A stretch of 64,000 nt of DNA from Cyanidioschyzon merolae (GCA_000091205.1 AP006487.2), one strand, 5' to 3'. Shown: positions 25,321 through 61,220, counted from the first letter of the stretch. The notes: a model not told the origin generated them from the letters alone. Numbers and translations are program-made.

Positions 25321-26589
25321 GAAGTCGTCGATTGCTGCGGCGGATTGCGCGGGCGCGATGCATTCGCGGTGGCGTTTTTCTCCAGTTGATGGTGTTCCAG
25401 CTGCAGATGCGTGCCACTGCATGTGCTTTTTTGCGATCTATAGCAGACGCGGTCGAATTGGATTCACTTGAAGGATTTAAAACATCTAGGAGAATGGTAT
25501 GGGCGTAAAAGTGGAGGATTTTGGAGCGTCGCCATCGCTCGGTTCTGCAAAGAAACGGGAACGATCCTCCTCTGACTGACGATCGTGCGACGAAGACGAA
25601 GAAGAACAGGGCAGAGTAGGCGAGAAAGTGTGTTTGCCTAACGAGATCATCACGGAACTGTAGTGGCAGAGAGGACGCAAGATCGAGGAATCATCGCAGT
25701 GGTGCGTTCAGCTTGCTGCGGAGCACATAGAGAACTCGTGAAGCGAGACTTCAACGCCGCCGTCGATACCAGAAAAGGTGCGGTACCGCAGACGAGAGAC
25801 GCGAGCGATGTGACGCGGGCGAAGGTTGCGGGCCAGCCTCACAGCATCGGCGTGTACGGGGTTAAGCTGAAGCCGATAGCAGGCGGCTGGTCAAAACAAG
25901 CAGGGAGGCGTCTGAGCGTAGGAATGTAAATATCATTCACGGTCGAGGGACATTTTTTGTTTTCCTGACCCTCTCCAGGATACAATGAAGCATGTTGCCT
26001 GACCAGGGCGTAAACGCTCAAGTTCGGGCTCTTTTTTAACGATCTTGAATACTTGCGTTCGCGGGCCTGTCTGTAACCGCTTCCTTTGCCTGTCTCTCGG
26101 ATTTCCGGCTTTCAATATGCGAGTCCTTTGTTTTCCTGTGGATCCGTTGTAATCAAAAGAAGGACGTTTATGGCAGTTTGAAGGCCCCGATTCTGAAGTT
26201 CCAGGCTGTTCTCGACACCGCTAATGCACAACTGGAGGTTGCGATCAACGCTTTCGTTGTGTTCTTGCGATCTTCTTTGGATAGAACTGCGGTGTGCTCG
26301 TCGCAGCGGTGAGAGTTGCCTGTCATCAGATGTTCGCATGCGCCCAACAAATTCCCTCGTCCGAGCGATTCCCCTCTGTCGTGGAAACGCTTGCTTCAGC
26401 GCTCGATGCATTGCCTCAACGGATACGGAAAGCGCGACTCGATGCTTTGCTGCGGTGAAGCCTCTGGGCGATGCCCGCGGCGAGTACCCTCGTTGCGGCA
26501 CGGCGCACGCGCACGCTGTTCCATAAGGCAGAGAATTTCGTGGAATGCACAATGTCGTCCATGATGAACCAAGTATCCGACGGGAAGTG

Positions 26590-27298
26590 AAGGCCTGGGT
26601 AGACTTGGAAAAATTTCGGTTCCTGTACGCTACCTCCATGCGAAGCAGTCGATATGATGAATCAGGTCAGAGTCCGATGCCCTTTTCCATGCTAAATGAA
26701 GCGATGGGAGCCGCTGGTACCGCATCAAAAGAGAGCTATGATGGTGATGGTGATGCTGTAGAATGGCGTCTTGTCGATGAACACATATAGGGGGAAAAAG
26801 GCTGGCCTTTCGGACGCAATCGATGATTCGCATTGCCGAGTTCAGCGCTATCTCAGCATTGCTATGTGATCAAGTCATCCAGGGAAGATCTCGGGTGTAT
26901 GCTCTCGTCCATCCAGCGGCGCGAATCGCTGTACCCACAAATCCTCTTCAACCTGATTGGTAGAAAACCTGATGCATGCAAAGTCTGCGCATACCCTGTC
27001 TGTTTGACACGGAAAAGCATGCAGATTGCTACCCAGGACCTGGACCATGAAACCGGTTGGTTTACGAAACCTCGTTCGAGGGCGTCGCCATGCATCGGTC
27101 TTGCGGTGCCGCAACGATTTCCAGTGGCACAGCGCCCAGAGCGCCACGCCCAGGAGACAAGCGAGAATCCCAAGAATTCGGACGAATCCGTAAGACCCCA
27201 TTGCTACACTTCGGTTATCGAAGCTGTACACCTGAACAGCATTCCGATAAAAATGTCAAGCCAGGACTAGAGCCAGCAGTCCAGTGTCCCGTGTTCAT
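26590..27298. repeat. dispersed composite repeat, locus R3 (module C plus module A)
   Basis: module C is about 26590-26815 and module A is 26816-27298. Confidence 0.85.
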
Positions 27299-28194: not shown

Positions 28195-28270
28195 GCTTTC
28201 GGGAGGCACTAGGCACACACGATAGGACGCACGAAACGACCAGTATATTCGAGAAGAAGTATAGGTCATG
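28195..28270 (-). repeat. third, partial copy of the conserved block-1 motif that marks the left module of the Fanzor-like elements
   Basis: The reverse complement 'ccaagttacatgacctatacttcttctcgaatatactggtcgtttcgtgcgtcctatcgtgtg' is about 80% identical over about 75 nt to 56760-56835 and 39285-39360. Confidence 0.7.
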
Positions 28271-28530
28271 TAACTTGGAAGTAGGGCGTCTGATAGATAC
28301 CTCACCGCGCACTGAAAAAAAAAGAAAGAAGAGCAAAATGCGCATAATCGGAGAACGCTGGCCGAACTTCAAGTTCTGTGAATGAAGAAATAAAAATCGA
28401 ACGCTGTCGAGGCGCCAGAGCGGCAATCCCCACAGGCGCGACGCAGACTCGCGTCTGCACGAGTACGACGGCCCAACAGCGCTAGTCTGCCGCTGTGTGC
28501 GTGATTGGGCACTACGAGCCCTGGCACCAC

Positions 28531-37379: not shown

Positions 37380-37948
37380 TCAGCATCGCGGATACCGTGC
37401 TGCTGCTGTAGAATGGCGTCTCGTCGATGAACACATATAGGGGGAAAAAGGCTGGTCTTTGGGACGCAATCGATGATTCGCATTGCCGAGTTCAGCGCTA
37501 TCTCAGCATTGCTATGTGATCAAGTCATCGAGGGAAGATCTCGGGTGTTTGCTCTCGTCCATCCAGCAGCGCGAATCGCTGTACCCACAAATCCTCTTCA
37601 ACCTGATTGGTAGAAAACCTGATGCATGCAAAGTCTGCGCATACCCTGTCTGTTTGACACGGAAAAGCATGCAGATTGCTACCCAGGACCTGGACCATGA
37701 AACCGGTTGGTTTACGAATCCTCGTTCGAGGGCGTCGCCATGCATCGGTCTTGCGGTGCCGCAACGATTTCCAGTGGCACAGCGCCCAGAGCGCCACGCC
37801 CAGGAGACAAGCGAGAATCCCAAGAATTCGGACGAATCCGTAAGACCCCATTGCTACACTTCGGTTATCGAAGCTGTACACCTGAACAGCATTCCGATAA
37901 AAATGTCAAGCCAGGACTAGAGCCAGCAGTCCAGTGTCCCATTTTATT
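37380..37948. repeat. dispersed composite repeat, locus R4 (partial module C plus module A)
   Basis: partial module C is about 37380-37465 and module A is 37466-37948. Confidence 0.85.
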
Positions 37949-39139: not shown

Positions 39140-40800
39140 TAGAGGCACTGACCACGCAGCGGGTCGATGACGTACAACGCGCGTGGTTTTCTGTTTTGGC
39201 AGAACGTTGATCTGGACCATGGATACTAGATCCTGGGATGGATATTGCTGTTCGGGAAAGCGTCCATTAGTCTTCACTCTACCTCCGAATTCCATGACCC
39301 ATACTTCCCCTCGGATGTACTGGTCGTTTCGTACGTTCCATTGTGCACCGAGCGCATGCGATGGGCGTCTACGCTAGCGAATGTACTGCTGGGGCGGATG
39401 CAGCACGGACAGAGAACGGCTTGGCCATGCCATTCAGGCCGTCCACTCGAGGCGCAGTGCCTAGGGCGCGGAGTAGGAACTCATCCTCAACCTGGGAGCC
39501 AGCAAGCTGCGCAGACAGACCTACTGCCCGTGACAGTGCGGAGCGATTTGCTCGGATGATCCGGCGACCGGTGGAATACCTGGATGTAGCCTAATCACGA
39601 CTAGTCCAGGAAGAAAGTGCCTCGCGGGCGAGTTGCTCAGGTCGCAACCCCTGTATCCGCCGCGGGAGGCAGCACGAAGCACTTGCCTGGCACACTCGTC
39701 CGGCTCGTGGGACGCTCCACCTGGAAGGTAAACTTGCAGGAATGTGGAAAATTTTGCCCCCTTTTACCGTTTCTCGTCCAGGGGAAAGAAACTGTTATCG
39801 AGTTGCTCGGTAGTGGGTATTTTCTGTCTTTCGGCACAGTTGCAACGAGTAAGCGGTTACTTTCTGGTCTTAGCACCTCGGATGCCTCGTCGAATCATTG
39901 AAGACCTGTCCTGGACGTCCGGCGATGTCCTCGTACTGGACAACATGGCGTTTCACCGTTGCCCTTAAGTTCGAGCAGCAGCTTCTTATTCCTCCTCCGT
40001 GCACTCGTTTGTTGAACCGTATTGAAGGAGTGTTATCTTTCGGGAAATATCATGATCGCCCGAGTAAGCGAATCGCTGAAACGTTCAGTACACGATGACA
40101 CTAAGGCACATGTCGTCTTTTTTCCGCAAGTCCTTCGTCCTCCGGTAAGGTCCTAACCCAAGCGCATAAACAAGTGCGATCATTCCCAATAATAAAGCAT
40201 CCAAGGGATAAGCCAGAACAGACACTCCAGAAAGTCGAAAATGAGAGAAGCCAGCGGAGCGCTCCGGCGATAGAAACCCACAGAGAGCTGACAGAGCAGT
40301 AAATGGCACAGAAGAAACCAGTCCGAGGAATCTCTGGTTTGGCGAGATCAACCAGAAGTAAAATACATATAGAGTTCGTGAACCGCGACTCCAACGCCGC
40401 CATCAATATCACGAGATGTGCATTCCGAAACGCGACACCTGTGAAGCTCACACGAGCGAACTTTGCGGGACACCCCCCTGAGGATCCAAATGAACACGGA
40501 TAAACTGAAACCGATAACCGTCAACCAGGCAAAAAACGACCGCGATGCATCCGCGCCCCCCGAGTACCCATCTGTAGCCCGTCGACGTGAGACGCGCGCG
40601 ATCCGGACACGTCTCGTGAACGGATCGCGCGCGTGCATGCAGGTGCCGCTGCGCCACTCGCTCGCGGAACACCAACTGCTCCCTCGATCGGCGCTCGCGG
40701 GTGGAACGGCGCAGCGGCGCTGGGGCGCTCACCTGGCGGCCGTCGCACTCGACAGCACGCAGCGCTGCGATGCGTGCCGCATCCGGATCCGTGCGGCGGG
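39140..40800 (+). mobile_element. internally deleted Fanzor/TnpB-like element (copy 2): conserved left module, nuclease C-terminal relic, conserved 3' tail
   Basis: 39140-39730 shares four conserved blocks with 56630-57190. 40130-40503 is homologous at protein level to the C-terminus of the 58116-59706 nuclease. About 200 nt of non-coding homology follow the stop codon. The boundaries are approximate. Confidence 0.5.
40130..40503 (+). pseudogene. Fanzor/TnpB-like nuclease C-terminal fragment (RuvC-III 'NRDSNAAINITRC') with an in-frame stop
   Basis: Frame-1 translation '...LQKVENERSQRSAPAIETHRELTEQ*MAQKKPVRGISGLARSTRSKIHIEFVNRDSNAAINITRCAFRNATPVKLTRANFAGHP' aligns with '...LQRDEMEKCHRRSEDIEKYGPLTEERMERRAKVRGLVAFVSRNRGEKGVECANRDFNAAVYIRRCAVPEKRPEESTRANFVGHP' of copy 1. 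The RuvC-II region is degenerate. Confidence 0.6.
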
Positions 40801-40909
40801 TGAATTGCGCAGCGCGCTGTGTGTGCGCGTCGCCAAACGGCAAACGGGCAGGATCCTGTTTCTAGGAGTGCGGTATCGTCCATGCGCGTCGTGCTTTGAA
40901 AGCAGGCTC

Positions 40910-43687: not shown

Positions 43688-46204
43688 CGCCCACGCGATA
43701 AGTTGTTCTGCAAACTGAGCATCACAACCCAAGACGGAGGAGAATTCTAAACCGTACCGATTTCCGACGGGCTCTGCACGCAACGCAACGCAACGCATCA
43801 CGTCATGAGTATGCGGCATCGCCTCATACGTCGGACGCGTTGTGCACGACTTCCCGATCGATGTTCAAGTGGTATTCGCTGTCGCGAGTGCATTCGGCCA
43901 CTGCCGTGGGTACTCAGACCGATCGATATGCTTTTCTGCAAGCGTCGCTGCTACCGCAGCCATCCTGGCTAGTCGCTCACGAGACACCGCGACGGCATTA
44001 GCGAACGTCCGCAACGCCGGCGTCCAGTGTTCAGGGGTTGTATGCCAAGCGTGTGCCGGCACCAGCGGTATTCCCGAGATGACTGCTTATCGTAGCACTA
44101 TGCAGATCTATCGACTTGAGCGTGGTCAACTCCGCGTCTAGCGTACGCGCTCTTCCACGCACTGCACAAAACGCACCCAAGCATTTCATGCTCGTGAAGC
44201 AGCGCTTCCTATAGCATCAGGTGACGCTGGTGTATGTGAGCAGCCCTGCACGCTGCGCATGGCATGGCAAAGGCGCGTGGCACGCACACGGGACACGTAG
44301 GTTGTGATGCGTGTCTTTCGGCGACACGCACGCACGCACGCATCCGGCGATGCATGAATGATGAGCGTGCCTGCGCAATCGGCGTTAGACAGGCAATTGG
44401 GCGCAGCTCGTGTCGTGTACGGCATCATGGACGAGAGCGAGGTGTTTTCCCTGTATTGGGCGTGTTTACTATCAAGGTGAACGTTTATACACACAGAGGA
44501 GAATCGCTGGTTTGGTGCTGTAGGCGCCTATGCTATGGTTTGTGCTGCTGTTTGAAGCGCGCGGCTCGTTCGCAGCGCAGTTTCTCGGGGTTCGCGCAAC
44601 GGTGCACCCTGCGTCTAGGCGTTGACTAGAGCGTCGAGGTTCCTCAGCGCATCGCTTCGCGTCGTCGCGGCAATTCGTTCAGCCGCGCGACACGCTGGTT
44701 CCCAAGGACTGACAGCGAGTCGCGACCCCGCAAACGGTCGACGACGCCTCAAGTCGACGCTCGTGGCGTCACTGCAAAGCTTTCCTGACTCTGTGGGGTA
44801 ACCGCAGCGGCAGCGCACCTGACAGAGCAGCAAGCATTTTTGGGGTATGCTCCGCATCCAGAGGTTCGCTGGATCGATTCGGCCTAATTTGCTTCCAGAA
44901 ACACCACAAGGGGACCGGGCCACGCAGAAGCGTATCTGGAGCAATCAGGGCCTCTTCCCTGGTATTTCGTTCAGTTGGCGCTTGCGGGACCTCTGGTTAC
45001 AGAACATCACTCGTACATCGTTAGAATACTGCGTGCACCTCGGGGGCTCTGAGTAAGATTTCCCTGTTCTGCTTGAAAGAAATCAAAATCTTGCGCAGCA
45101 TCCTGGGGCCATTCGCTGTCGCCCCGCCCCGTGTCGCATGATGGATGCATTATCCACGATACTGGATCATGGTACATCGATATCGTTCGCCATTTGACCT
45201 GGAAAATCTTTCCTGGTGTATATTCACAGCGCTTCAGCGTCGCAGCGTTACTGGAACGTATCGTATGAGTGCCGTGTCCCCGGTGGATTCCAATGCCCTT
45301 TCGCATGACCATTGCATGTTTCTATCGCAAGTCTTCCGCATTTCAGCAAAACGACCAAACTCCGTGGGAAACGAATCGCCCGAAAGCTCGCTCCTTATCA
45401 AGCTGCTGGACGCTCCGGAAGCATGACACGATTCCATAGGCTGATAGAGACATTCCAGTCTCGGTGCGGAGAGCGCGTGGGTTCATGGTCGCTTGTAGAG
45501 TCACACCATGGCACGCTTGTCACCCTCGATTGCCTGGTCAACTGACGTTCGCTTATCTTACAGTGAACCGTCTCATGCAAGCGGCTTTGTTGCATTCCGT
45601 TTTTATATACCTGTTTCAGCGGTAACACATGCACCCGGTGCCTGTATGTCATCTCGAACGCCTCGTTGAGAAGCATCCAGGATCGATATCTCGATCTCTC
45701 GTTTCACGCTCGTGTCGAACGAGCACGAGTGCAGCCCCTAAGCGCTAAAGCACACCCAGCACCATAGGCTACGAGCATCGAGCAACGCTCCGTGTCTGTC
45801 ATTTGCTTCCCCAACACATTGAAGTTGGCGAATGAGCGCGCCTTGCTTGTATACGACAGAGATCATTGGCAATGCCTGCACAATCCCGGATCAACCTGCC
45901 AACTGTCGCCCGCACGAGCGATTTGGACGCTGATCCACGGTGAAAATGAAGCACAGAGTGCATCCGCCGCTTTTCGGTGCGGTGCTCAGAGCGTCGACAT
46001 GGGTCCTGACGCCGTCCCTCTACTGTTCGATATACCTCTCGACGCCTATCATGATCGACGCTTGCAATCACCTGGCCCCGGAAAAGTCGACCAGTGCCAT
46101 CTAATTTCCATTCAGGCAACTGGCTCATCCCCTTTTGCTAGAGAGGTGCGTCGACGGTCATGACGCCCATCAATCCGGGATCCACGTCCACCGCGAAGTC
46201 GTTC

Positions 46205-46756
46205 TCATTGTCGGCCTGGGACCGTAGAAAAACGAGTCTCATTGCTTGACGCAGGCCTCGATTTAACAAAGTGCATGGAGACAGATATTCCGTTGACCTC
46301 CAATGTCTGGGTAAACTTTATTCCATTCCATCTCTGTGAACACAGAACCATCGGCGAGAACCGCCACTGCTCTTCGAGAGGTCGTTCGAATGCTTCGAAG
46401 GTGCGCGCGAGTGCCACCCGTAGATCACTGACGTGGTCATATAGTACACACGTTCCAACTGTAATAGAATAGGCCATGATGTGACACGTGCAAACCACAA
46501 TGAATAGACGCTTGAGAAGGCCGGGGCGCTCTGATGCGGGCAGCGAGCCTTGTTTGCGCTGGACGGCGCCGTCCAGGAGCACGAAGAAACGCAAGATGCG
46601 AGGAAAGCAGCCATCACCTCCCAACACTGCGTCAGATACGATGTTCTTCGGTCCGAGGCAGAGAGAAACGACATGAGCTCGAGTGATTTCAAGCGGCGCT
46701 CGCTCTCGTTGCCATGCCTCTTCCGAGCTCGCTACCGTTTCGATCTCTTCCGGCAA
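46205..46756 (-). CDS. hypothetical protein (183 aa), no recognisable family
   Basis: The ORF sits in a gene-free interval and has codon-like composition. No motif was recognised. Confidence 0.3.
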   Translation of the reverse strand: MPEEIETVASSEEAWQRERAPLEITRAHVVSLCLGPKNIVSDAVLGGDGCFPRILRFFVLLDGAVQRKQGSLPASERPGLLKRLFIVVCTCHIMAYSITVGTCVLYDHVSDLRVALARTFEAFERPLEEQWRFSPMVLCSQRWNGIKFTQTLEVNGISVSMHFVKSRPASSNETRFSTVPGRQ

Positions 46757-48255
46757 TTGGTCGTCATTTTGCCACCATCGACATCAGATGACTACCCTCC
46801 ATCAGTCCCAGATTTTCTGGTTCAGTAAGGTGAACCTACAACGCTCATGAGGAGTGCCTCACGAGGCGCTCGATATTGACCAGCGTATAATTTGATTTTT
46901 GCTTGATAAAATGTCGGTATCGGTGCTGTAGATACCCCGATCGCGGACGCGTCGAGGTATGCAGAGAAGCGTGTGTCTGCGAATCTCTGACCCTACGAGC
47001 AGGCCGTACTTCATCTTCTGTTCAGAGCATTATTTGCGTCTCGGCATGAGGGTTTGATCTATAGACCTATGTACGAGAGGAAAAGGGACAGCGGGAAGCC
47101 CTGCGTCTGGATAACGTATGAACAGCTGCATGACGATGTGTGAGAAGGCGAGAGAGGCTAAGCGCGACGTCGTCGAAAAGTCACATGATTCCTGATGCCG
47201 TTCTGCATTCAACGGTTCTCTGAATGCGAACGACTCATCTATGGATCCGTGAGCATAGAGAAAGCGTTTGAAAACATACAAGAATCGGCCGTCTGGATGG
47301 AACCAGGGATATTCAGCTGGCACAAAGAGCAGATCAACGCATGTATCTGCTGCGTACTACTTGATCGCTTACGAGCCAGGAAGAACGACGGTTTCTCTGA
47401 GCAGGACATAGGTGCGTGAGACGGAGGAGCATGAATTCCTCCGACGAAGGATGAGGTGTTGAACGATTCTTCCCGTTTGTCGATAGTTAGGCGAACACAT
47501 GATTGAATCGCTTCTAGAGCTGATCCTGTTGTCGTTTTCGCATGTCTTCTCGTTACGAACACCCGTCGCTCCTGTCGTAAGTGTTAGCGTTTCCGTATGG
47601 AAACGTTCGTTTGCTGTTCAACGCGCAGCGCTCTCGAATAGAGGCGTGCTTTTCTTCCACGCGCACTCGCGTCGCTGCATCAGAGGTCACTTCAGCGGTC
47701 CGAAACCCTCGTACCCGACGGTTTCTTTGGTAATATTCGTAGAGAAGATATGAACTGGAATGGGTTGAGATGGAACCCCGGGTATAGCTTTAGGTAGATA
47801 AGTTCTGTTTAGGGTGCACGCTGCCCAGGTGAACGACAACGACAAAGGGGGTTCATCCACCTGCCTTCCATACGATGACTGACTAGTAGCGCTAAGCTCG
47901 GTATTCGCTAGCTATCAGTGACAGCACACAGTCTCCCCGCAACAGATCCCCTATCTGCCGAATTCATTGCTTTTGCTGGAGAGCTGTGAGAAAAGCACAC
48001 GGAAATCAGTACGGTGCCGTGGTACCAGAATCGCAGACTGTACTATTCGTTCTAAATATGTACATCATAGACATAGCCCGTCGAACCGTTCTGATTTTCA
48101 AATCCCTCGGCGCGGGCGGCCACGAAACACGCCAGTGCGTTGAGGCGGCGATACAGCGCCTCTTCGCGCAGTCTCGCCTTTCCACGGGTGCCGGTGGTCT
48201 GTTCGCGAAAACCTTCAGTTTGCAGCCGATTTCTAAAATTTAGGCTTCTGAACGA

Positions 48256-52466: not shown

Positions 52467-53102
52467 TCATGAAACCGACCGCTGCTTGCGCCCCATTCGA
52501 CGGTGCGGTCGCACTGGCCGTCCGTAAAGCCGCTCTCCACGAATGTACCCGCCGGCTCCAAAGCGGCGGTTTCCGAACAGAAACCGATTCGCTTGCAACT
52601 CGGCCTCGTAGGCTTCCTGTTCCCAGAAGGCTTGCTCGCGAGCCTCTTCCCCGTCGTCTTCATCGTCGTTGACGGCGACGCCAATAGCGGCGGCAGCGGT
52701 GGCGGTAGCACTCGTTGCACCTGGCGCTTCCGCAGCGAACCACGAAGCAGTAGCTGCTGATGCTGACGCTGATGCTGACGACGTCAGGGCGTCTCCACGG
52801 CACCCTGCGTACCCGCCGTGCGCTGCGAGCCCGTAGCGTTGTACCAGCCACGGCGCTCGTCGAAGCAGTGGTAAAGGTTCCAGTTGCCAGCGTCCCGGCG
52901 CGAGAGGTGTACCGTCCAACAGCCGACGCACCAGTGCTGCCTCAAAAGCGCCCTTGCACAGCGGACATGTCGGGCGCACCGCTGCCCAGGCGATGAGGCA
53001 CAGCGCACAGAACCGGTGGCCGCACTCGGGTAAGACCAGTTGGTCGTCCTCGGGCACCTCGTCTACATAACAAATGGGACAGGAGAATGCCTCCTGTTCC
53101 AT
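52467..53102 (-). CDS. RING-finger (C3HC4/RING-H2) protein
   Basis: The motif 'CPICYVDEV...CGHRFCALCLIAWAAVRPTCPLCK' is present. The gene lies tail-to-tail with SMC4, with the two stop codons 56 bp apart. Confidence 0.75.
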   Translation of the reverse strand: MEQEAFSCPICYVDEVPEDDQLVLPECGHRFCALCLIAWAAVRPTCPLCKGAFEAALVRRLLDGTPLAPGRWQLEPLPLLRRAPWLVQRYGLAAHGGYAGCRGDALTSSASASASAATASWFAAEAPGATSATATAAAAIGVAVNDDEDDGEEAREQAFWEQEAYEAELQANRFLFGNRRFGAGGYIRGERLYGRPVRPHRRMGRKQRSVS

Positions 53103-55074
53103 TGCCCACCGGAAGATACCCCAGTTGGCAGGCGGGCGTCGTAGGCACGCGAGTCCAAGCGACCGTTCGGGTGCGCGCGCACGCCCGTACGCCGCTGGTG
53201 CGGCTGGGCCGCATTGTGCGCACGCTGTGGCCGCTGTGGAGCTCGCGATCTTTCGCCAACAAATGGGTGTAGGGCGCTGTAACCAACAGGTACCAAAGGT
53301 GCGTACCTGGTGGCCTGCTGCTCCGCGGAGCGAGATGCGCGCAATCGCACTGCGATTTGCAGTGTCATGCGTGGAACGATCAAATCAATGCTAACTCGAA
53401 CGGATCCCGCTGCGACCTGCGGTGCGGAGACTGAAGTTTGGGTCGATTCTTTGTGACTTGAAACAGAAGCCTTTGCGGAATATATCTGAGACTGATTTCT
53501 TTTCGTGTCGCTCGTAACTGGCTCTACATACGCGGGTGTCTGGTGCACAGCCGGCTCCGTTGTCAGCAGTGGCCGGAAGACGGTAGCGGCTGAGGTGCTG
53601 ATTTTGCAGGCCCTGGCTGACGCTGAAACCTGTCATGCATAGGCGGGGGTCGCGATCGACACCTCGCTTGCCATCTCCATGTCCTGCGCATACAGTCTCG
53701 TTGCGCCCTTCGCATCCATGATCACTGGCTGTGGTCACGTGTTGCTTCCGATCCGTGCACAGCAGCTGCTTCTCAGAGCGCCGACCTATCGCTCGTGAAT
53801 ACTCGCCTCATCGCTCGGTACATCCCCATGACGATACTGTCGGCTCGTTTCGATACCTTGTTCCGTTTTCGTGCCCGGTGCCATAACTTATGATCAGGGG
53901 CTTCTTCTGGGCGATTGACGGCGCTGCATGCCGACACGCGCACGCTGTTCCATCCGATAGGCGGTTTGTGCAATGCGATGTTCACCATGATGAAACAATT
54001 ACCGTAAGCAAAATCTATACTCGTGATCCAGACAACTTTTTTCGATCCGTCAACGCTCACTTCGTCGAAAGCGCTGTCGCATTTTCCATGAGAAGCGATC
54101 TTTGCGATGATGCAAGTCCGAGAACGTTTACCACGCACACAGATGAGGCCGCCGCCTCTGCCAGCACATCCCATGAGCTGTACCAAACAGCTGTCGAATG
54201 CCGTATCGTCGATGTCCGCAAAGCGCGCAGAATTTGCCTTTCAAACGGAATCGGTTATTGAAAGTCCCAAGTCGAGTGAACGTTCGGCAGGTGTAGGTAA
54301 AAAAGAGTCGCCATGCCACGACGCCGTTTCCTTTTTTGACGTGAATCCGTCGGCGCGAATTCCAGCGCCCACGAATTGCCTTGAAACAGAAGGACGGAGA
54401 ACATCAACATGCATTGATTTGACCATGCTAGTTGTGAGGAAATGTGATGCTTGATGACTCATTCGTACGCAGTCGATCATGGCACCGGTGATTCAAGAAA
54501 CCGTTGTTCAGAGGCGTTGAAAATCGAGCTAATCCGGATGACGTGACGAATCCCAGCAGCAAATCGTCAAAGGAGTGACTCCGAGAACACCCTCGGAACG
54601 CTCAAAATTAGTTATGAATCTCTCAGCCTTAATTTTTGCACGTTGCATGTCGTCGTTTTACGTGGAAAGAATTTCGTAAAAAAATCGCCATGCAGGACCA
54701 GAGCAAGCAGTTCAGTGTTCCAGGTTCAGCTACTGATATGAGCGAATGTCGTAGACTCCAGCGCACGTGCAGATGCAACGTCTATTGATGCACGGGTGGA
54801 GCGACGCGAGCGAGCTTCTCTTGAGCGAAGGCGATGCAACGCAACGTCGTCGTCCTGCCGAGCCTCATGGCATGCCGCGGACTCCACCGGGGAGCACTCA
54901 TACGAACAGACACAAACACATATACATACACTCGATGGGAATGGGTTCCAATGCGAGTATGTTTTCTGGTAAAACAGGGCGCCGTCGACAGGGTGTCTGC
55001 CCTACCATTCGCCAACGAGGTGGGCGGCAGCTTCGTCCAGGGCGCCGGCGCAAACGCTGCGGTCACTGTTTGGT

Positions 55075-56253
55075 ATGAGCAAACCAGCGGGTGGCTGTGG
55101 TGGCAGCGTCCCGGTGCCGGGCGATTGTCCCAAAAAGCTACTTTTTCTGGGTCCACGACAACTTGCAGTTGTTCCGGATGGGTCGCTGAGTCGCCCTCTG
55201 GAGCCAGACGAGGTTCGCGTCAGAGCGTTGTGCTCGGGCGTCAGCGCGGGCACGGAACTCTTGTTGTACAGGGGTCAGATTGTGGCGGACGATGCGCTGG
55301 ACGCGACCATAGCGGCGTACAAAGACCCAGATGCGGGACGGCGGGAGCATCGTAGCTTGTACCCAACGACGTTTGGCTACTGCCTCTGGGGAGAGGTGGT
55401 CGCTGTTGGGTCTGGGTTGGACCGCGAGCGCTGGGTCGGTAGCGTTGTTTTTCTCCTCGCTGGGCACGCCGAGGAGCACATTGTGAAAGCCAGTGACGTC
55501 CTTTTTTTCGCAGACGACTGGAACGGGGCCACTCGGGAGCTAGTGCTCGCTGTTCCCCAGCTGATTCCCGTCAGCGAGACGGTGACGTGCTGGCTACAGG
55601 ACGCTGCCCCGGTGCTCGGCGACCGGGTTGCAGTGGTCGGTGCTGGACTCTACGGCTCTGTGTTGGCGGTAGGCGGAGCTCTGCTTTTCCCACTGAGCAC
55701 ATGGCTCGTGGTGGAGCCAGATGCAAAACGACGGGCGCAGCTTGCTGTTGCGCTGAAAGAAGCGTCAGTCACACGTTGCCAAACGCTGGCACCCGACCAG
55801 GTTCAGGCGTACTTATCATCATCATCGTCATCAGAAACTCGCTTCGATATTGTGCTGGAGGTGTCTGGAACGACGGCGGGGCTCAATGTTGCGCTGGAAC
55901 TAGTCCGCGCCACGGGTCGAGTGATCATTGGCTCCTGGTATGGGCGCAAGGCACAGGAGGTACCGGTGGAGATGCTGGGCTCTACCCGCCTCCATCGAAG
56001 CCACGCCCAGATACTCTTCTCCCAGGTCAGTGAGATACCCCCGTGGCTCGCTGGTCGTTACGATAAGCGTCGACGATTGACAGTGGTGCAGGAATTTCTG
56101 ACGACCTTTTCCTCTGCGTTCAAGGCTATAGCTTGCACCGTTCGGAGCTTTGCGTTTGAGGAAGCACCTTACGTTTTTGGGCAGTTAGATAATGGGGCGC
56201 TATCGGACCCAGTTCGCTTCCTGTATGGGGATTCTTCAAGCGCTTTTTCCTAG
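55075..56253 (+). CDS. medium-chain dehydrogenase/reductase (MDR, alcohol-dehydrogenase-like) superfamily protein
   Basis: The N-terminal GroES-like region reads 'LLFLGPRQLAVVPDGSLSRPLEPDEVRVRALCSGVSAGTE'. The Rossmann motif is 'VAVVGAGLYGSVLAVGGALL'. Confidence 0.75.
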   Translation: MSKPAGGCGGSVPVPGDCPKKLLFLGPRQLAVVPDGSLSRPLEPDEVRVRALCSGVSAGTELLLYRGQIVADDALDATIAAYKDPDAGRREHRSLYPTTFGYCLWGEVVAVGSGLDRERWVGSVVFLLAGHAEEHIVKASDVLFFADDWNGATRELVLAVPQLIPVSETVTCWLQDAAPVLGDRVAVVGAGLYGSVLAVGGALLFPLSTWLVVEPDAKRRAQLAVALKEASVTRCQTLAPDQVQAYLSSSSSSETRFDIVLEVSGTTAGLNVALELVRATGRVIIGSWYGRKAQEVPVEMLGSTRLHRSHAQILFSQVSEIPPWLAGRYDKRRRLTVVQEFLTTFSSAFKAIACTVRSFAFEEAPYVFGQLDNGALSDPVRFLYGDSSSAFS

Positions 56254-56629
56254 TGTCTGAGAGATTCTAATCTTTCTTTATGGTTCCGCACAGTCGCCAA
56301 TTCGCTTGCAGTATTTCGAATCGATACGCGTGGAGGTACTGAAAAGCAGTCGTATCTCAAAGCATCGTCCATATTTGGGTAACGCTGATACCTCTAAAGG
56401 TTCTAAAACCCGTGCTATCTCAAAACAAGGGACACGGCACGCCCGGCGCCTGTTCGTTCTTTGGACCCAATCAAGCATCGATACCAAAAGCAAGCCCTAT
56501 GTGGAGGCCACAAAAACGTAGAAGCATTTAGGTAGAAACTATAAACGCTCCCCTGGTATCTGGAACCCTTGCGGTATCCAGCGCGTCACATATGGCACGC
56601 TGTACGAATGCACGCCGCCCTGACCCTGC

Positions 56630-59600
56630 CATGCATCGACAGCAGCAGCGCGGGCGTGATTTTACTTCGATCACAAAATTCGTTTCCAGGGGCCATGGAT
56701 CCCAGATTGCGCGATGGGCAATGGCTCTGGGGAAAGTCTCCACGATGATGCATCCACGGCCAAGTTCCATTGCTTATACTTCCTTTCGGATGCACTGGTC
56801 GTTTCGTACGTTCTGTTGTGTGCCGAGTATCTGCCTTGATGCACCAGCAATAGCGCTTATATCCCTGGTAAGGATACAGCGCGAAGACAGAGCGGATTCT
56901 TCATACTACTGACGGCGTCGAATCGAGGAATGCTACATTTATTGACAGGGAGTCACGGCAAATTATCATTCTGGGAGTCTGCAAGCTGCGCAGACAGCAT
57001 TCTGCCTGTGGCAGCGCGAAGCGATATACTAGGAGTCCACTGCCACTAGTGCGACGTCCAGACGCAGCCTGATTGCCCCTAGTCCCAGAACAGACTGCGT
57101 TGCGGACGAGCTACGCAGATCTCTCTAAAGCACCAGCCAGTTTCGAGGCACACCGAGCACCAGCCCGGCAAACTCGTCCGGCGCGCTGCACTGTTCACCT
57201 AGAAGAAAAACTTTCGACAACATAGAATCCTTTTCCCCCTTTTAATGTTTATCACAGAGGGAGAGAAGGAATTGTAATCTCGTAAGTGGATCATAGTGAT
57301 TCTCTGTTCTTTGTTCTAAATAGTGCGGTTGATACTCGCATCTGGGAGATCTGGCCGTCACGAGGCACGACGCGCATCTCGCCGTTGAAGGGAAACACGT
57401 TTCTGATCAATACCGTGTTGCTCTAATGTACAAGTTATATTTGGGTTAAAATCATAGCGAATTATAGTCTTTCAATTCAATTCTATTTCAATTCTCAGGG
57501 GAGTGTATTCAAGTGATTTTTCGCGGTGTATATTAGAAGCTTTCAAAGAGTCTTCTTTTTCAAAAAATTAAAGAAGGAAAGATATAGAAAGGAAAGTAGA
57601 GGATCCCGGCGGGCCGTTTTCTCCGGCTGTCGGAAAGAAACGGAACGCAGTGCCAAGCAAAGAGGAACACGACAGGACGAAGAAGCGAAAGAAGGATGCC
57701 AGACGTCAAAAGCTGCGAGCAAGTCGACAGTACGACGAGATAGGAGCCAAAGCCCTTCTTCTACGCCGCAGCAAGGATCCCTAAAGCAAATAACGCATGA
57801 GGTCATCAAAAAAACGTGTCGCGTCTTACGCTATGAGTATTATAAAGGCTTCTTCAGGACTGATGCATTGTCGAAGATGTACGACAACGTGACGGAAATT
57901 CGAAGAGTCGAGGTTCCGGCAGAGTTTATCAACAGGACCTTTATTCGCCTCCTGATGGTTGGCACAGGGGAAACGCCGAGGAGAAATGAGCGAGAGCATG
58001 TCCTCCACGAAAATCACAAGGAATACCGCTTCAACGGTACTCGGCACAGGGACGGCGCGGATATCTACACATACGGTGTGAAAAGTACCTCACGAACCTG
58101 AAGAACCATTTCATAATGAGCCTCAAACGCTTCGTGATACGCGCCGTCTTTGCACTCTACCCGGGTATCTCTCGCAGAGGCAGACGGGCCAGCATCGATG
58201 GCATCACGAACGACAGCAGGAGTGAACGGGAGATCGAATTCGTCCACGAGGAGACTTCAAACCGGAGTATGAATGAAGCTTCCGTGGCCCGTGCGGCTAT
58301 GCAAGAGCACCGTGCGGTCTTAGGGCTTGTCAACCCAGCGGAAAAGATATCAGATATGAAAAAGGATGGAAAAGGTGCGATTCCCTCATCCTGCGTTATT
58401 TCGTGTCCCTGAACCGAGAGCGCGAACGCAAGGCCGATATGGCGCCGGCCCTAAAAAATCGAGAGTCGGACAAACGGAAGGCTTTCCTACGAGAGAGGCG
58501 CTTCAACGTTGTTCGGATTTGCGGGATCAAGTCGGATTTCGTGACCATCAACTCCAGCGTCCTCTACTGGATCATGAGGAAGATCAGTATAGAGTTCTGT
58601 GTAAGCAACAAGGAATTCATCGGCGAGAGCCGGGAAACGTATTGGAAGAATATCCTCGATCTGAAGCGTCTCAAAACGAGCATGCGAGGGGTATCCGCGG
58701 GGATCGTCGAAACCGATAGGGTATCCATAGGTGTTCACTGACGGCGCTTGAGGGCGGATCGCCCGGTTCCATCTTCGTTGTCACCCGTGACGGAGCATGA
58801 AGGAAAGAAGGAGGCGGATCCTGCGACGCCGGCGGTGCAGGAGAACGACCGTGTCGTTGGCACGGACCGCGGAAATACGAATACCATAATCATCGCAGTA
58901 CCCAAGCCTGGGGAAGATGGTATTGACGGCAACTTATGCGAGAAAGACACGCGACTTTTGGAGTTCGCGAGAGCGAGCTATGACCGAGAATCCGGTATAA
59001 TGAATGCCAGGAAGAAAATTGAGACATGGAATGCAGGAGTCAAGGAAGAGCTGGAAGCGATCAGCCAGGTGCCTATCCGCGGAGCGGACTTTCGAGATTT
59101 TCGGGAGCTCGTGAAAATTCGCGTTGCTCATTGCGAGGATCTGTGCAAGGGGTTTGCAAAGTACCGGCTTGGTGGGCTCGTCACCACACGAACTTGTACT
59201 GTGGGGAGCAGTGTCTATTCGCGAGCTTTTCCAACCAGCTGGGCGCCCTCAAGGAAGACGATAGTCAAAGGCTCGTAACAGCGTGTGAAGCAGAGCGCTG
59301 GGCGCCAAAACAAAAGGAGTGTACGCCCGCTCCGTCGCCACGAGCGTACAAGGAGTACGCACGGCGTTTTGTTACGATACATGTAGATGAGTTCCGAACT
59401 TCATACATACAATACGAGTTGGGGTGTCCGCTCCAGAGGGACGAGATGGAAAAGTGCCATCGACGCTCTGAGGATATAGAAAAGTACGGACCGCTGACGG
59501 AAGAGCGAATGGAAAGGAGGGCGAAAGTTCGAGGACTAGTCGCATTCGTAAGTAGAAACAGAGGCGAGAAAGGTGTGGAGTGTGCGAACCGAGACTTTAA

Positions 59601-59950
59601 TGCCGCTGTGTATATCAGGAGATGCGCAGTGCCGGAGAAGAGACCCGAGGAGTCGACGAGGGCCAACTTTGTGGGGCACCCCTATTCCCCCTCCGCCCCG
59701 AGGTGAAATTGCACGCGAATACGTTGAAACCAGCAGTAGGTGGCCAGTCAAGGAAAACGGGTAGGCGTCTGCACGCCGGTGCGTGGACATCCAGCCTACG
59801 GCCGGGCGGCGCGCTGCCCGCCACCACTGCACACCAGAAGCGCAGCGTTTGCCGCCTGGAAGAGAGTCGTTGCTGCCGGTGTTCCTCTAGTCGAGTTTAA
59901 GAGTTTGGACCGGTCGTTCCTGTAAATCTCGATGAGATTGGGATTTTAAA
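56630..59950 (+). mobile_element. Fanzor/TnpB-like element (copy 1): conserved left module, AT-rich island, frame-disrupted nuclease gene, conserved 3' tail
   Basis: Left module is 56630-57190, with blocks shared with 39140-39730. An AT-rich island follows at 57190-57600. The nuclease relic spans 58116-59706. The 3' tail of about 250 nt runs to the next gene (59970) and is homologous to 40503-40750. Confidence 0.5.
58116..59706 (+). pseudogene. Fanzor/TnpB-like RuvC nuclease gene, frame-disrupted (or intron-interrupted)
   Basis: The RuvC-I motif 'RVVGTDRGNTNTIIIAV' lies at about 58850-58900 in frame 2. The RuvC-II motif 'IRVAHCEDLCKGFAKY' is also in frame 2, with the E codon at 59135. After a shift to frame 1 near 59175-59200 come 'RRFVTIHVDEFRTSYIQYELGC' (the conserved TS motif that precedes the zinc finger), a degenerate zinc finger 'C...C.H', and the RuvC-III motif 'ANRDFNAAVYIRRC' with the D codon at 59593. 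An in-frame TGA at 58739 and at least one frameshift break the reading frame. A possible N-terminal 'RFVIRAVFALYPG' lies in a third frame at 58116. Confidence 0.6.
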
Positions 59951-59969
59951 CGGGTGGTCATCACCGCTT

Positions 59970-61220
59970 ATGAGTGCCTTCTTCGCCAAAGTTCGGGGGG
60001 CGTTCCAGAACGTAACTTCGTTTGCGGCGGACGCCAGCTACGACGAGGAGCTCAATCGCCTCATTCAGCGCTGCAAGCAGTACAAGGATGTGAACGATAT
60101 GATTATCAAGCAGGCCAAGCTATATGACACGTCGCTGCGGGACCTTTCATCCGTGGGACGTGCAGCCGGAGAAACGTACATGTCCATAGCTAGCTTTCGA
60201 AGCTTCCCTGGCGGCGCTGTCGCGGGAGAGTCAGACTTGCGGCTGGCGCAGGCGCAAGGTTCGTTTCGAACCAGGAGTATAAGCTCGCTTAGCACGGCGG
60301 ATGCCAGTGACCGGAGCACAGGAGCGGGATCCTTCTATCTGTACCGGAGCGACGAACGTCGCGTGCTAGCGCAGCTCGGCCGAGCAGAGCGCGCTGCGCA
60401 CCAGGCACAGGCTGTGTTCGCAGAACGTATTTCGGCCCCGATTATCCTCGAGGGCCGTCAGTTTAAAGAGCGGTACGATGAGTTGCGACGGCTCAAGTCG
60501 CTCTACAAACGATGTAAGCGAAGGTACATTCAGGCACAAAGAGCTCTGGCATCGGAGAAAGCGAAGCGGGTTCCTTCTATGGAAGCACAGGTGAAGCTCG
60601 TGGCCAAGCTTGCGGAGCACGAGGAAGAGTTCAAACGCGTGACAGAGAAACTGTTCGTTCACGCAAAGGCACTCGAAGATGAACATCACTATTCGGTCAT
60701 GCAACATGTTTGCGGCTTTCTATTGCACCATTACAACGCACTCGTTATCTCCTTGCGCGCTATCAAGAACGTGATCGCCATCGCAGAGAAACACATTCCG
60801 GAGAAAATTCAGCTTGAGAGGCTGGAAAGCCTTGCCATCGAATTACACAAACTCTTGCCGTCAGCGGAAGCATTTGAACACGCTGGATTGGGAGGGACGG
60901 ACGCCGTACCTAGTTTGCCGGATAGTTCCCAGAGTTCGTCTGCTGGACGTGAGGATGAGTCGGAGCTTCGTCTGCGAATACAGCGCTCGGAAGAACTACT
61001 CAGCGTGGCGAATGCCGAGTCTCAGCGGTGGAAGATGCTTTATCTCCAAGCAGAGCGAAAGAATCGCGCACTTTACCTCGAGAATCACCGTCTTAAGAAT
61101 ATGATGCATGGAGTTGATTGCTCCTCTATCCGAGACGACCGACAGTCCACTTCTTCGTTCATGTTCGATGATCAGCGGTTGATGACTGAGGCGCAGGCCC
61201 GGCGAGGTCATATCACCTAG
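59970..61220 (+). CDS. coiled-coil protein, possibly BAR-domain-like at the N-terminus
   Basis: 416-aa ORF. The N-terminus 'FAKVRGAFQNVTS...DEELNRLIQRCKQYKDVNDMIIKQAKLY' resembles BAR-domain starts. Long heptad-like helical regions follow. The family is not confirmed. Confidence 0.55.
   Translation: MSAFFAKVRGAFQNVTSFAADASYDEELNRLIQRCKQYKDVNDMIIKQAKLYDTSLRDLSSVGRAAGETYMSIASFRSFPGGAVAGESDLRLAQAQGSFRTRSISSLSTADASDRSTGAGSFYLYRSDERRVLAQLGRAERAAHQAQAVFAERISAPIILEGRQFKERYDELRRLKSLYKRCKRRYIQAQRALASEKAKRVPSMEAQVKLVAKLAEHEEEFKRVTEKLFVHAKALEDEHHYSVMQHVCGFLLHHYNALVISLRAIKNVIAIAEKHIPEKIQLERLESLAIELHKLLPSAEAFEHAGLGGTDAVPSLPDSSQSSSAGREDESELRLRIQRSEELLSVANAESQRWKMLYLQAERKNRALYLENHRLKNMMHGVDCSSIRDDRQSTSSFMFDDQRLMTEAQARRGHIT

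What the first reader, a model, noticed from the sequence alone, without database searches (positions are those of the whole stretch)
58116..59706. Fanzor/TnpB-like (OMEGA-type RuvC) nuclease gene relic, copy 1
All three RuvC catalytic motifs typical of TnpB/Fanzor are present and in the canonical order. The first is RuvC-I 'RVVGTDRGNTNTIIIAV' (G-x-D-x-G-x-x-N). The second is RuvC-II 'IRVAHCEDLCKGFAKY' (the hydrophobic-E-D-L signature). The third part comprises 'VDEFRTSYIQYELGC' (the conserved TS motif that precedes the zinc finger), a degenerate Cys/His zinc-finger region, and RuvC-III 'NRDFNAAVYIRRC' (D-x-NAA-x-x-I). The reading frame is broken: there is an in-frame TGA at 58739 and a frame-2 to frame-1 shift near 59175-59200. 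The presumptive N-terminal WED/REC part is scattered over three frames (for example 'RFVIRAVFALYPG' at 58116). This is either a recently decayed Fanzor or a gene with small introns. Fanzor proteins are eukaryotic TnpB homologues carried on diverse transposons and are known to be RNA-guided DNA endonucleases. A copy in this GC-rich genome, with a sister copy 17 kb away, has not to my knowledge been annotated.
Basis: partly seen in the sequence, partly recalled or inferred. Interest (0 to 1): 0.85.

Follow-up and report, generated by a model that had tools for sequence, protein, structure and literature searches.

The report
Dead Fanzor1 transposon copy, red alga
This is a long-dead, frameshifted copy of a Fanzor1 (eukaryotic TnpB-like, RNA-guided nuclease) gene carried on the repetitive element CMe-1A of the red alga Cyanidioschyzon merolae; the family was published in 2013, so the identification is right but the finding is ordinary.

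Summary
The window is Cyanidioschyzon merolae 10D chromosome 5. The flagged peptides, the TGA at 58739 and the frame 2-to-1 shift (actually 59168-59172) are all present.

A profile built from 46 diverse relatives hits only solved Fanzor1 structures (Parasitella 3.9e-20, Spizellomyces 1.4e-10, Guillardia 2.5e-6). An AlphaFold model of an almost intact family member (pLDDT 83) matches SpuFz best (E 1.7e-13, TM 0.62).

The relic is larger than reported. The coding remains span 57530-59790, with five frameshifts and four stops. The whole element spans about 56657-59870. The lesions are small indels, not introns. The copy is 77% identical to the family consensus, so it is old.

[quoted passage not shown] The "EDL" RuvC-II is a chance match inside a helix. 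As in other Fanzors, the canonical position is Gly (A-Y-G) and the invariant Glu is in V-D-E-F.

Bao & Jurka (2013) already described this family: Fanzor1 CMe-1, about 150 copies of the roughly 3-kb CMe-1A. Verdict: correct identification, already known, low interest.

The parts
56657..57304 (+). 5' non-coding module of the element. It is inferred to be the TE-N2_CMe-like 5' ~635 bp of CMe-1A.
   Evidence: Conservation among 26 copies rises at about 56657. The module is colinear with the core in about half of 80 related loci. It is 65% identical to window 39214-39775, and fragments occur alone at 28176-28278(-) and 21756-21819(-). The length fits Bao & Jurka's 635-bp 5' part. Identity with the Repbase TE-N2_CMe entry was not checked directly.
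57305..59870 (+). Fanzor1 'core' of the element: short leader, coding relic and conserved 3' tail.
   Evidence: Similarity to independent copies in other genomic contexts starts at about 57305-57337 and ends at about 59870. The core is 77.3% identical to a 35-copy consensus.
57530..57868 (+). Coding relic block 1 (frame 2): N-terminal basic, NLS-like region (KKRKKDARRQK). Three in-frame stops.
   Evidence: tblastn of P0131 and P0132; three-frame translation.
57868..58077 (+). Coding relic block 2 (frame 1).
   Evidence: P0131 residues 86-155 align at 53% identity.
58083..58385 (+). Coding relic block 3 (frame 3), in the helical REC-like region.
   Evidence: P0131 residues 158-258 align at 63% identity. 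The region is helical in the model.
58358..59167 (+). Coding relic block 4 (frame 2): WED-like strands, linker, RuvC-I and helical insertion. It contains the TGA at 58739-58741.
   Evidence: P0143 residues 107-424 and P0131 residues 250-452 align.
58786..58865 (+). Single unit of a 75-nt (25-aa) repeat (KHE..KEADPATQ.VQDND.VV) that is tandemly amplified up to about 5-6 times in other copies.
   Evidence: Multiple HSPs to this interval in many loci; repeated peptide in P0010, P0029 and P0176. In the model it is a low-confidence linker, residues 259-300.
58865..58867 (+). RuvC-I catalytic Asp codon (GAC) in 'VVGTDRGNT'. It is retained.
   Evidence: It aligns to invariant D314 of alignment A3 and to the 'DPG' of PpFz and SpuFz.
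59135..59143 (+). This is not RuvC-II but a chance match inside a helix.
   Evidence: The family consensus here is AHWDALW. Residues 401-407 of P0143 lie in helices 389-401 and 403-410.
59173..59685 (+). Coding relic block 5 (frame 1): canonical RuvC-II strand, alternative Glu, degenerate zinc-ribbon/TNB region and RuvC-III.
   Evidence: P0010 residues 281-450 align at 66% identity; P0143 residues 415-583 at 65%.
59269..59301 (+). Canonical RuvC-II beta-strand: 'RLVTACEAERW' versus the family's 'RLVVAYGAGRW'. The invariant Gly is mutated to Glu at 59287-59289.
   Evidence: Invariant G453 in A3; strand 448-453 in the model. Fanzors carry Gly or Pro at this position (PMC10530073).
59389..59391 (+). 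Candidate alternative catalytic Glu codon (GAG) in 'VDEFRTS'. It is retained.
   Evidence: Invariant E486 in A3. It aligns to the 'DEF/DEY' of PpFz and SpuFz. The role is inferred from the rearranged Fanzor active site.
59593..59595 (+). RuvC-III catalytic Asp codon (GAC) in 'NRDFNAA'. It is retained.
   Evidence: Invariant R554, D555, N557 and A559 in A3. It aligns to the 'NRD' of PpFz and SpuFz.
59700..59790 (+). Coding relic block 6 (frame 3): C-terminal tail '...VGGQSRKTGRRLH'.
   Evidence: P0010 residues 452-476 align at 56% identity. The consensus ORF ends '...GRRLHVSWRRLV*'.
59791..59870 (+). Conserved non-coding 3' tail. In the family consensus it ends in a terminal hairpin followed by TTTG. 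The hairpin has decayed in this copy. It is a candidate right-end or guide-RNA scaffold remnant.
   Evidence: Conservation across 68 copies persists to about 59870 and then collapses. The hairpin is present in two sequence variants in roughly two thirds of copies; the window copy has z = +0.5. No Rfam match.
39214..40476 (+). 'Sister' copy: an internally deleted CMe-1A, with the 5' module at 39214-39775 and the Fanzor C-terminus at about 40135-40476 ('VNRDSNAAINITRC').
   Evidence: blastn and tblastx, ORF list, tblastn. The same type of deletion derivative is seen in other loci.
25684..25923 (+). Third CMe-1 relic. Only the 3' end survives ('VKRDFNAAVDTRKG...GRRLSV').
   Evidence: ORF list, tblastn, blastn.
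45407..47257 (-). Much more divergent, heavily decayed Fanzor1 relic of a different lineage.
   Evidence: tblastn of the intact 699-aa relative P0217 gives 27-36% identity (E 5e-20 and 2e-15). Identity to CMe-1 members is only 24-27%.

Best explanation
Window 56657-59870 is one old, inactive copy of the non-LTR, non-TIR repetitive element CMe-1A of Cyanidioschyzon merolae. The element consists of three parts: a roughly 650-bp non-coding 5' module, a single gene for a roughly 720-750-aa Fanzor1 protein, and a conserved roughly 80-nt 3' tail. Fanzor1 is the eukaryotic TnpB/Cas12 relative, with WED, REC and a split RuvC domain. When the family was active, the protein is inferred to have bound a guide RNA transcribed from the 3' end of its own ORF and tail. 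It would then have cut DNA matching the sequence flanking the right end, using the Fanzor-type rearranged RuvC site: Asp in G-x-D-P-G, Gly at the canonical RuvC-II position, an alternative Glu in V-D-E-F, and Asp in N-R-D-x-N-A-A. The element encodes no transposase, so mobilisation must have depended on another factor. In this copy the gene is destroyed by at least five 1-2-nt frameshifts and four in-frame stops, and the terminal hairpin is lost, so it has no nuclease function now. What is shown: homology, fold, lesions, element limits and copy structure. What is inferred: RNA guidance, the role of the 3' tail, and the mode of mobilisation.
For: Organism and locus: exact matches to C. merolae 10D proteins BAM79261, BAM79264, BAM79265 and BAM79266 on a 528,682-bp record. 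Family: 127 homologues at about 60% identity, 90 for the N-terminal part, 1429 representatives in the exhaustive HMMER search and 124 confirmed metagenome loci. Membership: the A3 profile hits only Fanzor1 chains in the PDB, namely 9cf0 at 3.9e-20, 8gkh at 1.4e-10 and 9cer at 2.5e-6. The AF2 model has pLDDT 82.8 and pTM 0.77. The top seven Foldseek hits are all Fanzor1 (SpuFz E 1.7e-13, TMq 0.62 over about 590 columns), followed far behind by Cas12 and TnpB. Catalytic pattern: invariant D314, G453, E486 and R554-D555-x-N557-x-A559, matching the published rearranged Fanzor site. Pseudogene: frame map 2-1-3-2-1-3 with stops and no inserted DNA at the switches. The copy is 77.3% identical to a consensus that itself reads as two long ORF halves of 411 and 336 aa. 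Element limits and modules. Prior description of exactly this family, with about 150 copies about 80% identical to a roughly 3-kb consensus, a 5' 635 bp equal to TE-N2_CMe, and no TIRs: PMC3627910.
Against: Pfam gives no hit on the relic fragments or on near-intact family members. Only sub-threshold PF07282 hits occur, in 4 of 10 distant relatives. Single-sequence and shallow-profile PDB searches are empty. The Cys4 zinc ribbon seen in SpuFz is not conserved in this clade. No guide RNA is demonstrated: RNAalifold finds only a weak consensus fold, the terminal hairpin is significant in only 12 of 60 copies by shuffling, and there is no Rfam match. None of the 82 sampled loci has a full-length ORF, so present-day activity of the family is unproven. 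Identity of the 5' module with Repbase TE-N2_CMe rests on length and position only.
Confidence: 0.95

Rival explanations
1. The gene is functional and the frame changes are small spliceosomal introns.
For: Fanzor genes in other eukaryotes do carry introns (abstract of PMC10530073). The three catalytic residues D, E and D are still present in this copy.
Against: At each of the five frame switches the homologue's residues are contiguous and only 0-6 nt separate the blocks, which leaves no room for an intron. Four stops lie inside conserved, aligned codons, for example TGA replacing Tyr in VHYRRLK. The copy is the most diverged of 36 from the consensus. From my own knowledge, not tested here, C. 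merolae has only about 26-27 intron-containing genes.
Confidence: 0.01
2. The motifs belong to another RuvC/RNase H-like family (a resolvase, or a prokaryotic TnpB acquired by transfer or contamination) rather than to Fanzor.
For: Pfam TnpB models do not match. The fold search also lists TnpB 8h1j and several Cas12 proteins.
Against: The only significant PDB sequence hits are three Fanzor1 proteins. Fanzor1 structures outrank TnpB and Cas12 by about 10 orders of magnitude in E-value and cover the whole length. The Gly-for-Glu rearranged active site is the Fanzor/TnpB2 type. The locus is flanked by C. merolae nuclear genes. The nearest named relative is from a green alga, Tetrabaena socialis.
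Confidence: 0.02
3. The relic has been exapted. Either the surviving 226-codon ORF 59026-59706 or the element's RNA now serves a host function, such as a regulatory RNA or the promoter/5' UTR of the downstream gene CME033C, which starts 100 bp beyond the element's end.
For: The region is 99.4% identical in related metagenome populations. The element ends at about 59870 and CME033C starts at 59970.
Against: The 99% identity extends equally over the flanking genes, so it reflects recent common ancestry and not selection. The exact ORFs are absent from a 15-billion-protein collection. There is no Rfam hit, and the terminal hairpin is lost.
Confidence: 0.03

Closest known systems
Fanzor1 family CMe-1 on element CMe-1A / TE-N2_CMe of Cyanidioschyzon merolae (Bao & Jurka 2013, Mobile DNA 4:12; PMC3627910)
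   Same: The species is the same and the element length matches (about 3.2 kb here versus 'around 3 kb'). It carries a single Fanzor1 ORF, has no TIRs, and has a 5' module of about 650 bp that also occurs on its own. The copy is about 77-80% identical to the consensus, and the family has many decayed copies.
   Different: Nothing essential differs; this is one member. Details seen here are not mentioned in the parts of that paper I read (my 'find' excerpts): the core is joined to at least four other 5' modules, there is a conserved 3' tail with a terminal hairpin, there is a variable 25-aa tandem repeat, and there are deletion derivatives. Direct alignment to the Repbase consensus was not possible.
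Structurally and biochemically characterised Fanzor1 nucleases: SpuFz1 (8GKH), PpFz (9CF0) and GtFz (9CER)
   Same: Profile homology covers the WED, REC and RuvC regions. The overall fold matches, with TM 0.5-0.62. The D / Gly+alternative-Glu / D active-site pattern is shared. The N-terminus is basic and NLS-like.
   Different: Sequence identity is only 13-16%. The CxxC...CxxxxC zinc ribbon of SpuFz is replaced by 'THHELGC...' with no second Cys pair. No omega RNA or activity is known for the CMe-1 clade, and the window copy is a pseudogene.
Prokaryotic TnpB (IS200/IS605, IS607) and Cas12f
   Same: They share the RuvC fold superfamily. The gene is carried at the 3' side of a mobile element, and non-coding conservation runs to the right end.
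   Different: No Pfam OrfB_IS605 or Cas12f1-like_TNB hit reaches threshold. The fold match is weak (8h1j E 1e-2, TMq 0.20). The canonical RuvC-II Glu is absent. There is no TnpA in the element. The host is eukaryotic, and the protein is about twice as long.

Membership tests
Fanzor1 | Significant sequence-profile homology to experimentally characterised Fanzor1 proteins | tested here: met
   The A3 profile (46 sequences, with the family member P0143 first) against all PDB chains gives PpFz 3.9e-20, SpuFz 1.4e-10 and GtFz 2.5e-6, with no other hit below E = 1. The window relic is tied to that family at E about 1e-100.
Fanzor1 | WED-REC-RuvC fold of Fanzor1 over the whole protein | tested here: met
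   The AF2 model has pLDDT 82.8. The top seven Foldseek hits against the PDB are all Fanzor1, led by SpuFz at E 1.7e-13 with TMq 0.62 and TMt 0.61 over 591 columns. The test was done on P0143, a near-intact family member, not on the broken window copy.
Fanzor1 | RuvC-I Asp (G-x-D-P-G) and RuvC-III Asp (R-D-x-N-A-A) | tested here: met
   D314 and R554, D555, N557 and A559 are invariant in A3. Both Asp codons are retained in the window, at 58865-58867 and 59593-59595.
Fanzor1 | Rearranged RuvC-II: Gly or Pro at the canonical Glu position plus a conserved alternative Glu | tested here: met
   G453 (A-Y-G, end of strand 448-453) and E486 (V-D-E-F) are invariant. The published rule is in PMC10530073. 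That E486 is the catalytic residue is inferred by position, not shown. In the window copy the Gly has mutated to Glu (59287-59289) and the alternative Glu is kept (59389-59391).
Fanzor1 | C-terminal zinc-ribbon (TNB) with paired Cys motifs | tested here: inconclusive
   The region is present and modelled as beta-hairpins, but the Cys pairs are not conserved in this clade: the consensus reads 'TSYTHHELGCTLQ...LLALVSTT'. PF07282 gives only sub-threshold hits (E 0.002-0.09) in 4 of 10 distant relatives.
Fanzor1 | Carried in multiple copies on a eukaryotic mobile element | tested here: met
   There are at least three CMe-1 relics in this 64-kb window and 124 confirmed loci in metagenomes. The element limits are shared among copies lying in different flanks. 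About 150 copies are reported.
Fanzor1 | Associated guide RNA (omega/fRNA) encoded at the ORF 3' end through the right end | tested here: inconclusive
   Non-coding conservation extends about 80 nt past the stop codon. A terminal hairpin occurs in two sequence variants. However, the consensus fold is weak (-3.7 kcal/mol), only 12 of 60 copies have z < -2, there is no Rfam family and there are no expression data.
Fanzor1 | RNA-guided double-strand DNA cleavage | not testable with these tools
   This needs biochemistry. The window copy cannot be active, given at least five frameshifts and four stops.
Fanzor1 (functional gene) | Uninterrupted ORF | tested here: not met
   The frame map is 2-1-3-2-1-3 with stops. 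The longest ORFs are 226 and 191 aa. This fails 'is a functional Fanzor' but not 'is derived from a Fanzor1 gene'.
TnpB (Pfam OrfB_IS605 / Cas12f1-like_TNB, prokaryotic IS200/605-IS607) | Match to Pfam TnpB domain models above the gathering threshold | tested here: not met
   There are no Pfam hits for six window fragments, seven family members or ten distant relatives above threshold. The relation to TnpB holds only at superfamily and fold level.
CMe-1A (Repbase element) | About 3 kb, 5' 635 bp shared with TE-N2_CMe, no TIRs, single Fanzor1 ORF, copies about 80% identical to the consensus | tested here: met
   The element is 56657-59870, or 3.2 kb. The 5' module is 648 bp and also occurs without the core. 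No inverted repeat links the ends. Identity to the consensus is 77.3%. Direct alignment to the Repbase entry was not possible.

The most novel reading that the evidence does not exclude
Some details seen here were not in the parts of the 2013 paper I read, and they could add up to something new about how this unclassified element moves. First, the 2.55-kb Fanzor1 core is joined at one precise point (about 57305) to at least four or five unrelated 5' modules. Second, its conserved right end carries a hairpin kept in two different sequence versions. Third, no transposase is present. Together these would fit a single-strand, hairpin-dependent (IS200/605- or Helitron-like) or Fanzor-assisted homing mechanism. 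The terminal hairpin would then double as the last stem of the guide RNA. In addition, the divergent relic at 45407-47257 would mean that C. merolae once hosted a second Fanzor1 lineage not in the published catalogue.
Probability: 0.15. Interest if true: 0.45.

Novelty: already known. Interest (0 to 1): 0.15.

Why it matters
Scientifically it matters little. It is one of about 150 decayed copies of a Fanzor1-bearing element catalogued in this alga in 2013, and it cannot encode an active nuclease. Its practical value is for annotation. The C. merolae gene set leaves 56254-59969 blank, and the standard Pfam TnpB models miss this clade entirely. Scans that rely on OrfB_IS605 or OrfB_Zn_ribbon will therefore under-count Fanzors in red algae, whereas a clade-specific profile or a structure-based search finds them easily. 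The consensus rebuilt from many copies reads almost as a full ORF, and together with the conserved 3' tail it could serve as a starting point for resurrecting a thermo-acidophile-derived Fanzor1. That is a property of the family, not of this copy.

Tried and rejected
1. Scans of seven near-intact homologues gave the same result.
2. phmmer of a 318-aa conceptual translation against PDB gave only noise. A shallow family profile (A1, members about 75% identical) against PDB also gave only noise. Success needed the diverse alignment A3, built from the exhaustive HMMER search.
3. The first AlphaFold run on the shallow alignment A2 gave pLDDT 45.5 and was unusable, so it was not used for fold search.
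4. The precomputed domain PF26935 seen on some homologues turned out to be DUF8286, which is uninformative.
5. Rfam at E <= 1 over 56500-60100 gave nothing.
6. RNAalifold over the last 300 nt of 60 copies gave only a weak structure with negligible covariation. The terminal hairpin is supported by recurrence in two sequence variants, not by statistics.
7. I searched for an intact full-length ORF among 82 related loci and found none; the longest is 593 aa.
8. I tried to use an orthologous 'empty site' to fix the element's ends. Related populations carry the same insertion at 99% identity. Contig L005 diverges upstream of 57638, but only into another copy's 5' region, through recombination or chimeric assembly.
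9. I considered and rejected three alternatives: introns, a non-Fanzor RuvC family, and prokaryotic contamination (see rival explanations).
Full report
**Where the window comes from.** ORFs flanking the finding are exact matches to annotated proteins of Cyanidioschyzon merolae strain 10D on a 528,682-bp record. These are the RNA polymerase I subunit BAM79261 (38601-39023, minus strand), BAM79264 (52467-53102, minus strand), BAM79265 (55075-56253) and CME033C/BAM79266 (59970-61220). BAM79265 and BAM79266 are consecutive accessions. No protein is therefore annotated across 56254-59969, where the finding lies.

**Checking the observation.** TGA at 58739-58741 is in frame 2. The similarity is not chance. 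A 318-aa conceptual translation recovers 127 proteins with E down to 7e-115 at about 60% identity. The N-terminal part recovers 90 more.

Frame-aware mapping of near-full-length relatives shows coding remains from about 57530 to about 59790:
- frame 2, 57530-57868, with three stops;
- frame 1, 57868-58077;
- frame 3, 58083-58385;
- frame 2, 58358-59167, with TGA replacing the Tyr of VHYRRLK;
- frame 1, 59173-59685;
- frame 3, 59700-59786.

The relic is therefore about 600 nt longer on the 5' side than reported, and it has at least five frameshifts and four stops.

**Decay, not introns.** At each frame switch the aligned homologue continues residue to residue, with only 0-6 nt between blocks. 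The stops sit in conserved aligned codons. This excludes introns. A majority consensus of 35 independent copies reads as two long ORF halves of 411 and 336 aa, broken only in a variable repeat region. The window copy is 77.3% identical to that consensus, the lowest of 36 copies (range 77-90%, median 87%). The decay is old, not recent.

**Membership test.** Pfam finds nothing in the fragments or in near-intact relatives. Only sub-threshold PF07282 (Cas12f1-like TNB, formerly OrfB_Zn_ribbon) hits appear, in 4 of 10 distant relatives. Single-sequence and shallow-profile searches of PDB sequences were also empty.

An exhaustive HMMER search with the family profile found 1429 cluster representatives, many of them intact proteins of 600-740 aa. 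One of these is annotated only as a hypothetical protein of the green alga Tetrabaena socialis. I aligned 45 of these with the family member P0143 to make alignment A3 (27-40% identity). The A3 profile hits only Fanzor1 chains among 177,635 PDB sequences: Parasitella parasitica Fz1 at 3.9e-20, Spizellomyces punctatus Fz1 at 1.4e-10 and Guillardia theta Fz1 at 2.5e-6.

AlphaFold2 on A3 gave a confident model (pLDDT 82.8, pTM 0.77). A first attempt on a shallow alignment had failed (pLDDT 45.5). The seven best Foldseek matches in the PDB are all Fanzor1 cryo-EM structures, led by SpuFz at E 1.7e-13 with TM 0.62 over about 590 columns. Cas12 and TnpB follow at E of 6e-3 or weaker. The family is Fanzor1.

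The invariant columns of A3 are D314 (G-x-D-P-G), G453 (A-Y-G), E486 (V-D-E-F) and R554-D555-x-N557-x-A559.

The family reads AHWDALW there, and those residues (401-407 of P0143) lie within alpha-helices of the model. The canonical RuvC-II beta-strand is 'RLVVAYG' (residues 448-453; window 59269-59301). It ends in an invariant Gly, exactly as published for Fanzors, which carry Gly or Pro at that site and use an alternative Glu (PMC10530073). The invariant Glu of V-D-E-F (window 59389-59391) is the natural candidate for that alternative residue. This is inferred by position, not shown. The 'degenerate zinc finger' is a trait of the whole clade and not damage to this copy: the Cys pairs seen in SpuFz are absent from the family consensus.

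**The element.** I compared the window with 80 related metagenome loci and with two contigs carrying the most intact genes. Similarity begins at about 56657 in roughly half the copies and at about 57305-57337 in the rest. In all copies it ends at about 59870, some 80 nt after the consensus stop codon.

The full element is thus about 3.2 kb, in two parts:
- a roughly 650-bp non-coding 5' module, 56657-57304;
- a 2.55-kb Fanzor core, 57305-59870.

No terminal inverted repeat links the ends. This matches Bao & Jurka's description of CMe-1A in this species. They report about 150 copies about 80% identical to a roughly 3-kb consensus, a 5' 635 bp identical to the separate repeat TE-N2_CMe, no TIRs, undetermined TSDs and unknown classification (PMC3627910). 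I could not align the Repbase entries directly, so equating the 5' module with TE-N2_CMe is an inference from size, position and its solo occurrence (28176-28278 and 21756-21819).

**Other copies in the window.**
- The 'sister' is an internally deleted CMe-1A, with the 5' module at 39214-39775 and the C-terminal coding part at about 40135-40476.
- A 3'-end fragment lies at 25684-25923.
- A much more divergent, heavily decayed Fanzor1 relic lies on the minus strand at 45407-47257. It is closer to the intact 699-aa protein P0217 (27-36% identity) than to CMe-1 (24-27%).

**How it most likely worked.** By homology with characterised Fanzors, the protein would bind an RNA encoded from the 3' end of its ORF to the element's right end. 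It would then cut DNA complementary to the guide that reads into the flank.

Consistent with this, non-coding conservation extends to about 59870. The consensus right end forms a hairpin in two different sequence versions (CGTCGTTCGA-CUU-UCGAACGGCG and CGUUUUUC-UUUU-GAAAGGCG), each followed by TTTG, in roughly two thirds of copies. The evidence remains weak, however. RNAalifold gives -3.7 kcal/mol with negligible covariation. Only 12 of 60 copies reach z < -2. Rfam has no match. In the window copy the hairpin is gone (z = +0.5). The element encodes no transposase, so how it moved remains unknown, as in 2013. None of the 82 loci examined carries a full-length ORF.

**Verdict.** Four things need correcting: the extent, the RuvC-II motif, the age ('recent') and the novelty. 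The family has been in the literature since 2013. Fanzor biochemistry and structures date from 2023-2024. This copy is an ordinary pseudogene, so interest is low.

Noticed in passing
window 45407-47257 (minus strand): A second, much more divergent Fanzor1 relic. It is 27-36% identical to the intact 699-aa protein P0217 but only 24-27% to CMe-1 members. It is riddled with stops, and RuvC-III reads 'HRDWNVS'. Bao & Jurka list only one Fanzor family for C. merolae, so this may be an uncatalogued older lineage.
   Followed up: partly
window 58786-58865; loci L050, L053, L056, L057, L063 and others: A 75-nt unit encoding 25 aa (KHE.EKEADPATQKVQDNDFVVGA) lies just upstream of RuvC-I. It is present once in the window copy but tandemly amplified up to about 5-6 times in other copies. 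In the model it falls in a disordered linker.
   Followed up: partly
junction at window about 57305; loci L016-L085: The Fanzor core is joined at the same point ('...GCGCTCrGTGAGCG-CACCTGGGAGATC...') to at least four or five mutually unrelated upstream sequences in different subfamilies. Several core-only copies have an inverted 5'-module fragment about 110-135 nt upstream.
   Followed up: partly
L005:1-3669 versus window 53000-57637: A metagenome contig is 99.4% identical to the window from 57638 onward. Upstream it continues into a different copy-like sequence and a THF1 (ThylakoidFormat) gene. This is either recombination between element copies in that population or a chimeric assembly through the repeat.
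   Followed up: partly
window 40463-40600: The long ORF of the VHS/GAT-domain gene (40463-43687 from a TTG) extends 5' into the 3' tail of the 'sister' relic (peptide '...LKPITVNQAKNDRDAS'). Metagenome gene calls of 1063-1066 aa may therefore be over-extended at the N-terminus. The true start was not determined.
   Followed up: no
window 23277-23644, 26748-27115, 37398-37765; also 16667-16966 / 22724-23023: Three copies of a repeat of 300 nt or more at 97-98% identity, and a separate two-copy repeat at 97%. Both are much younger than the Fanzor relics. Their nature was not examined.
   Followed up: no
window 10127-11002 and 18687-18884: Two tandem arrays: a 73-nt unit repeated about 12 times, and an 8-nt unit (GGATGCAC / GGATGCTT) repeated about 25 times.
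   Followed up: no
proteins P0014, P0034, P0143 and others: Newer Pfam assigns part of these Fanzor1 proteins to PF26935 (DUF8286), a domain of unknown function. On the evidence here that DUF lies within a Fanzor1 protein. Which part of the protein it covers was not mapped.
   Followed up: no
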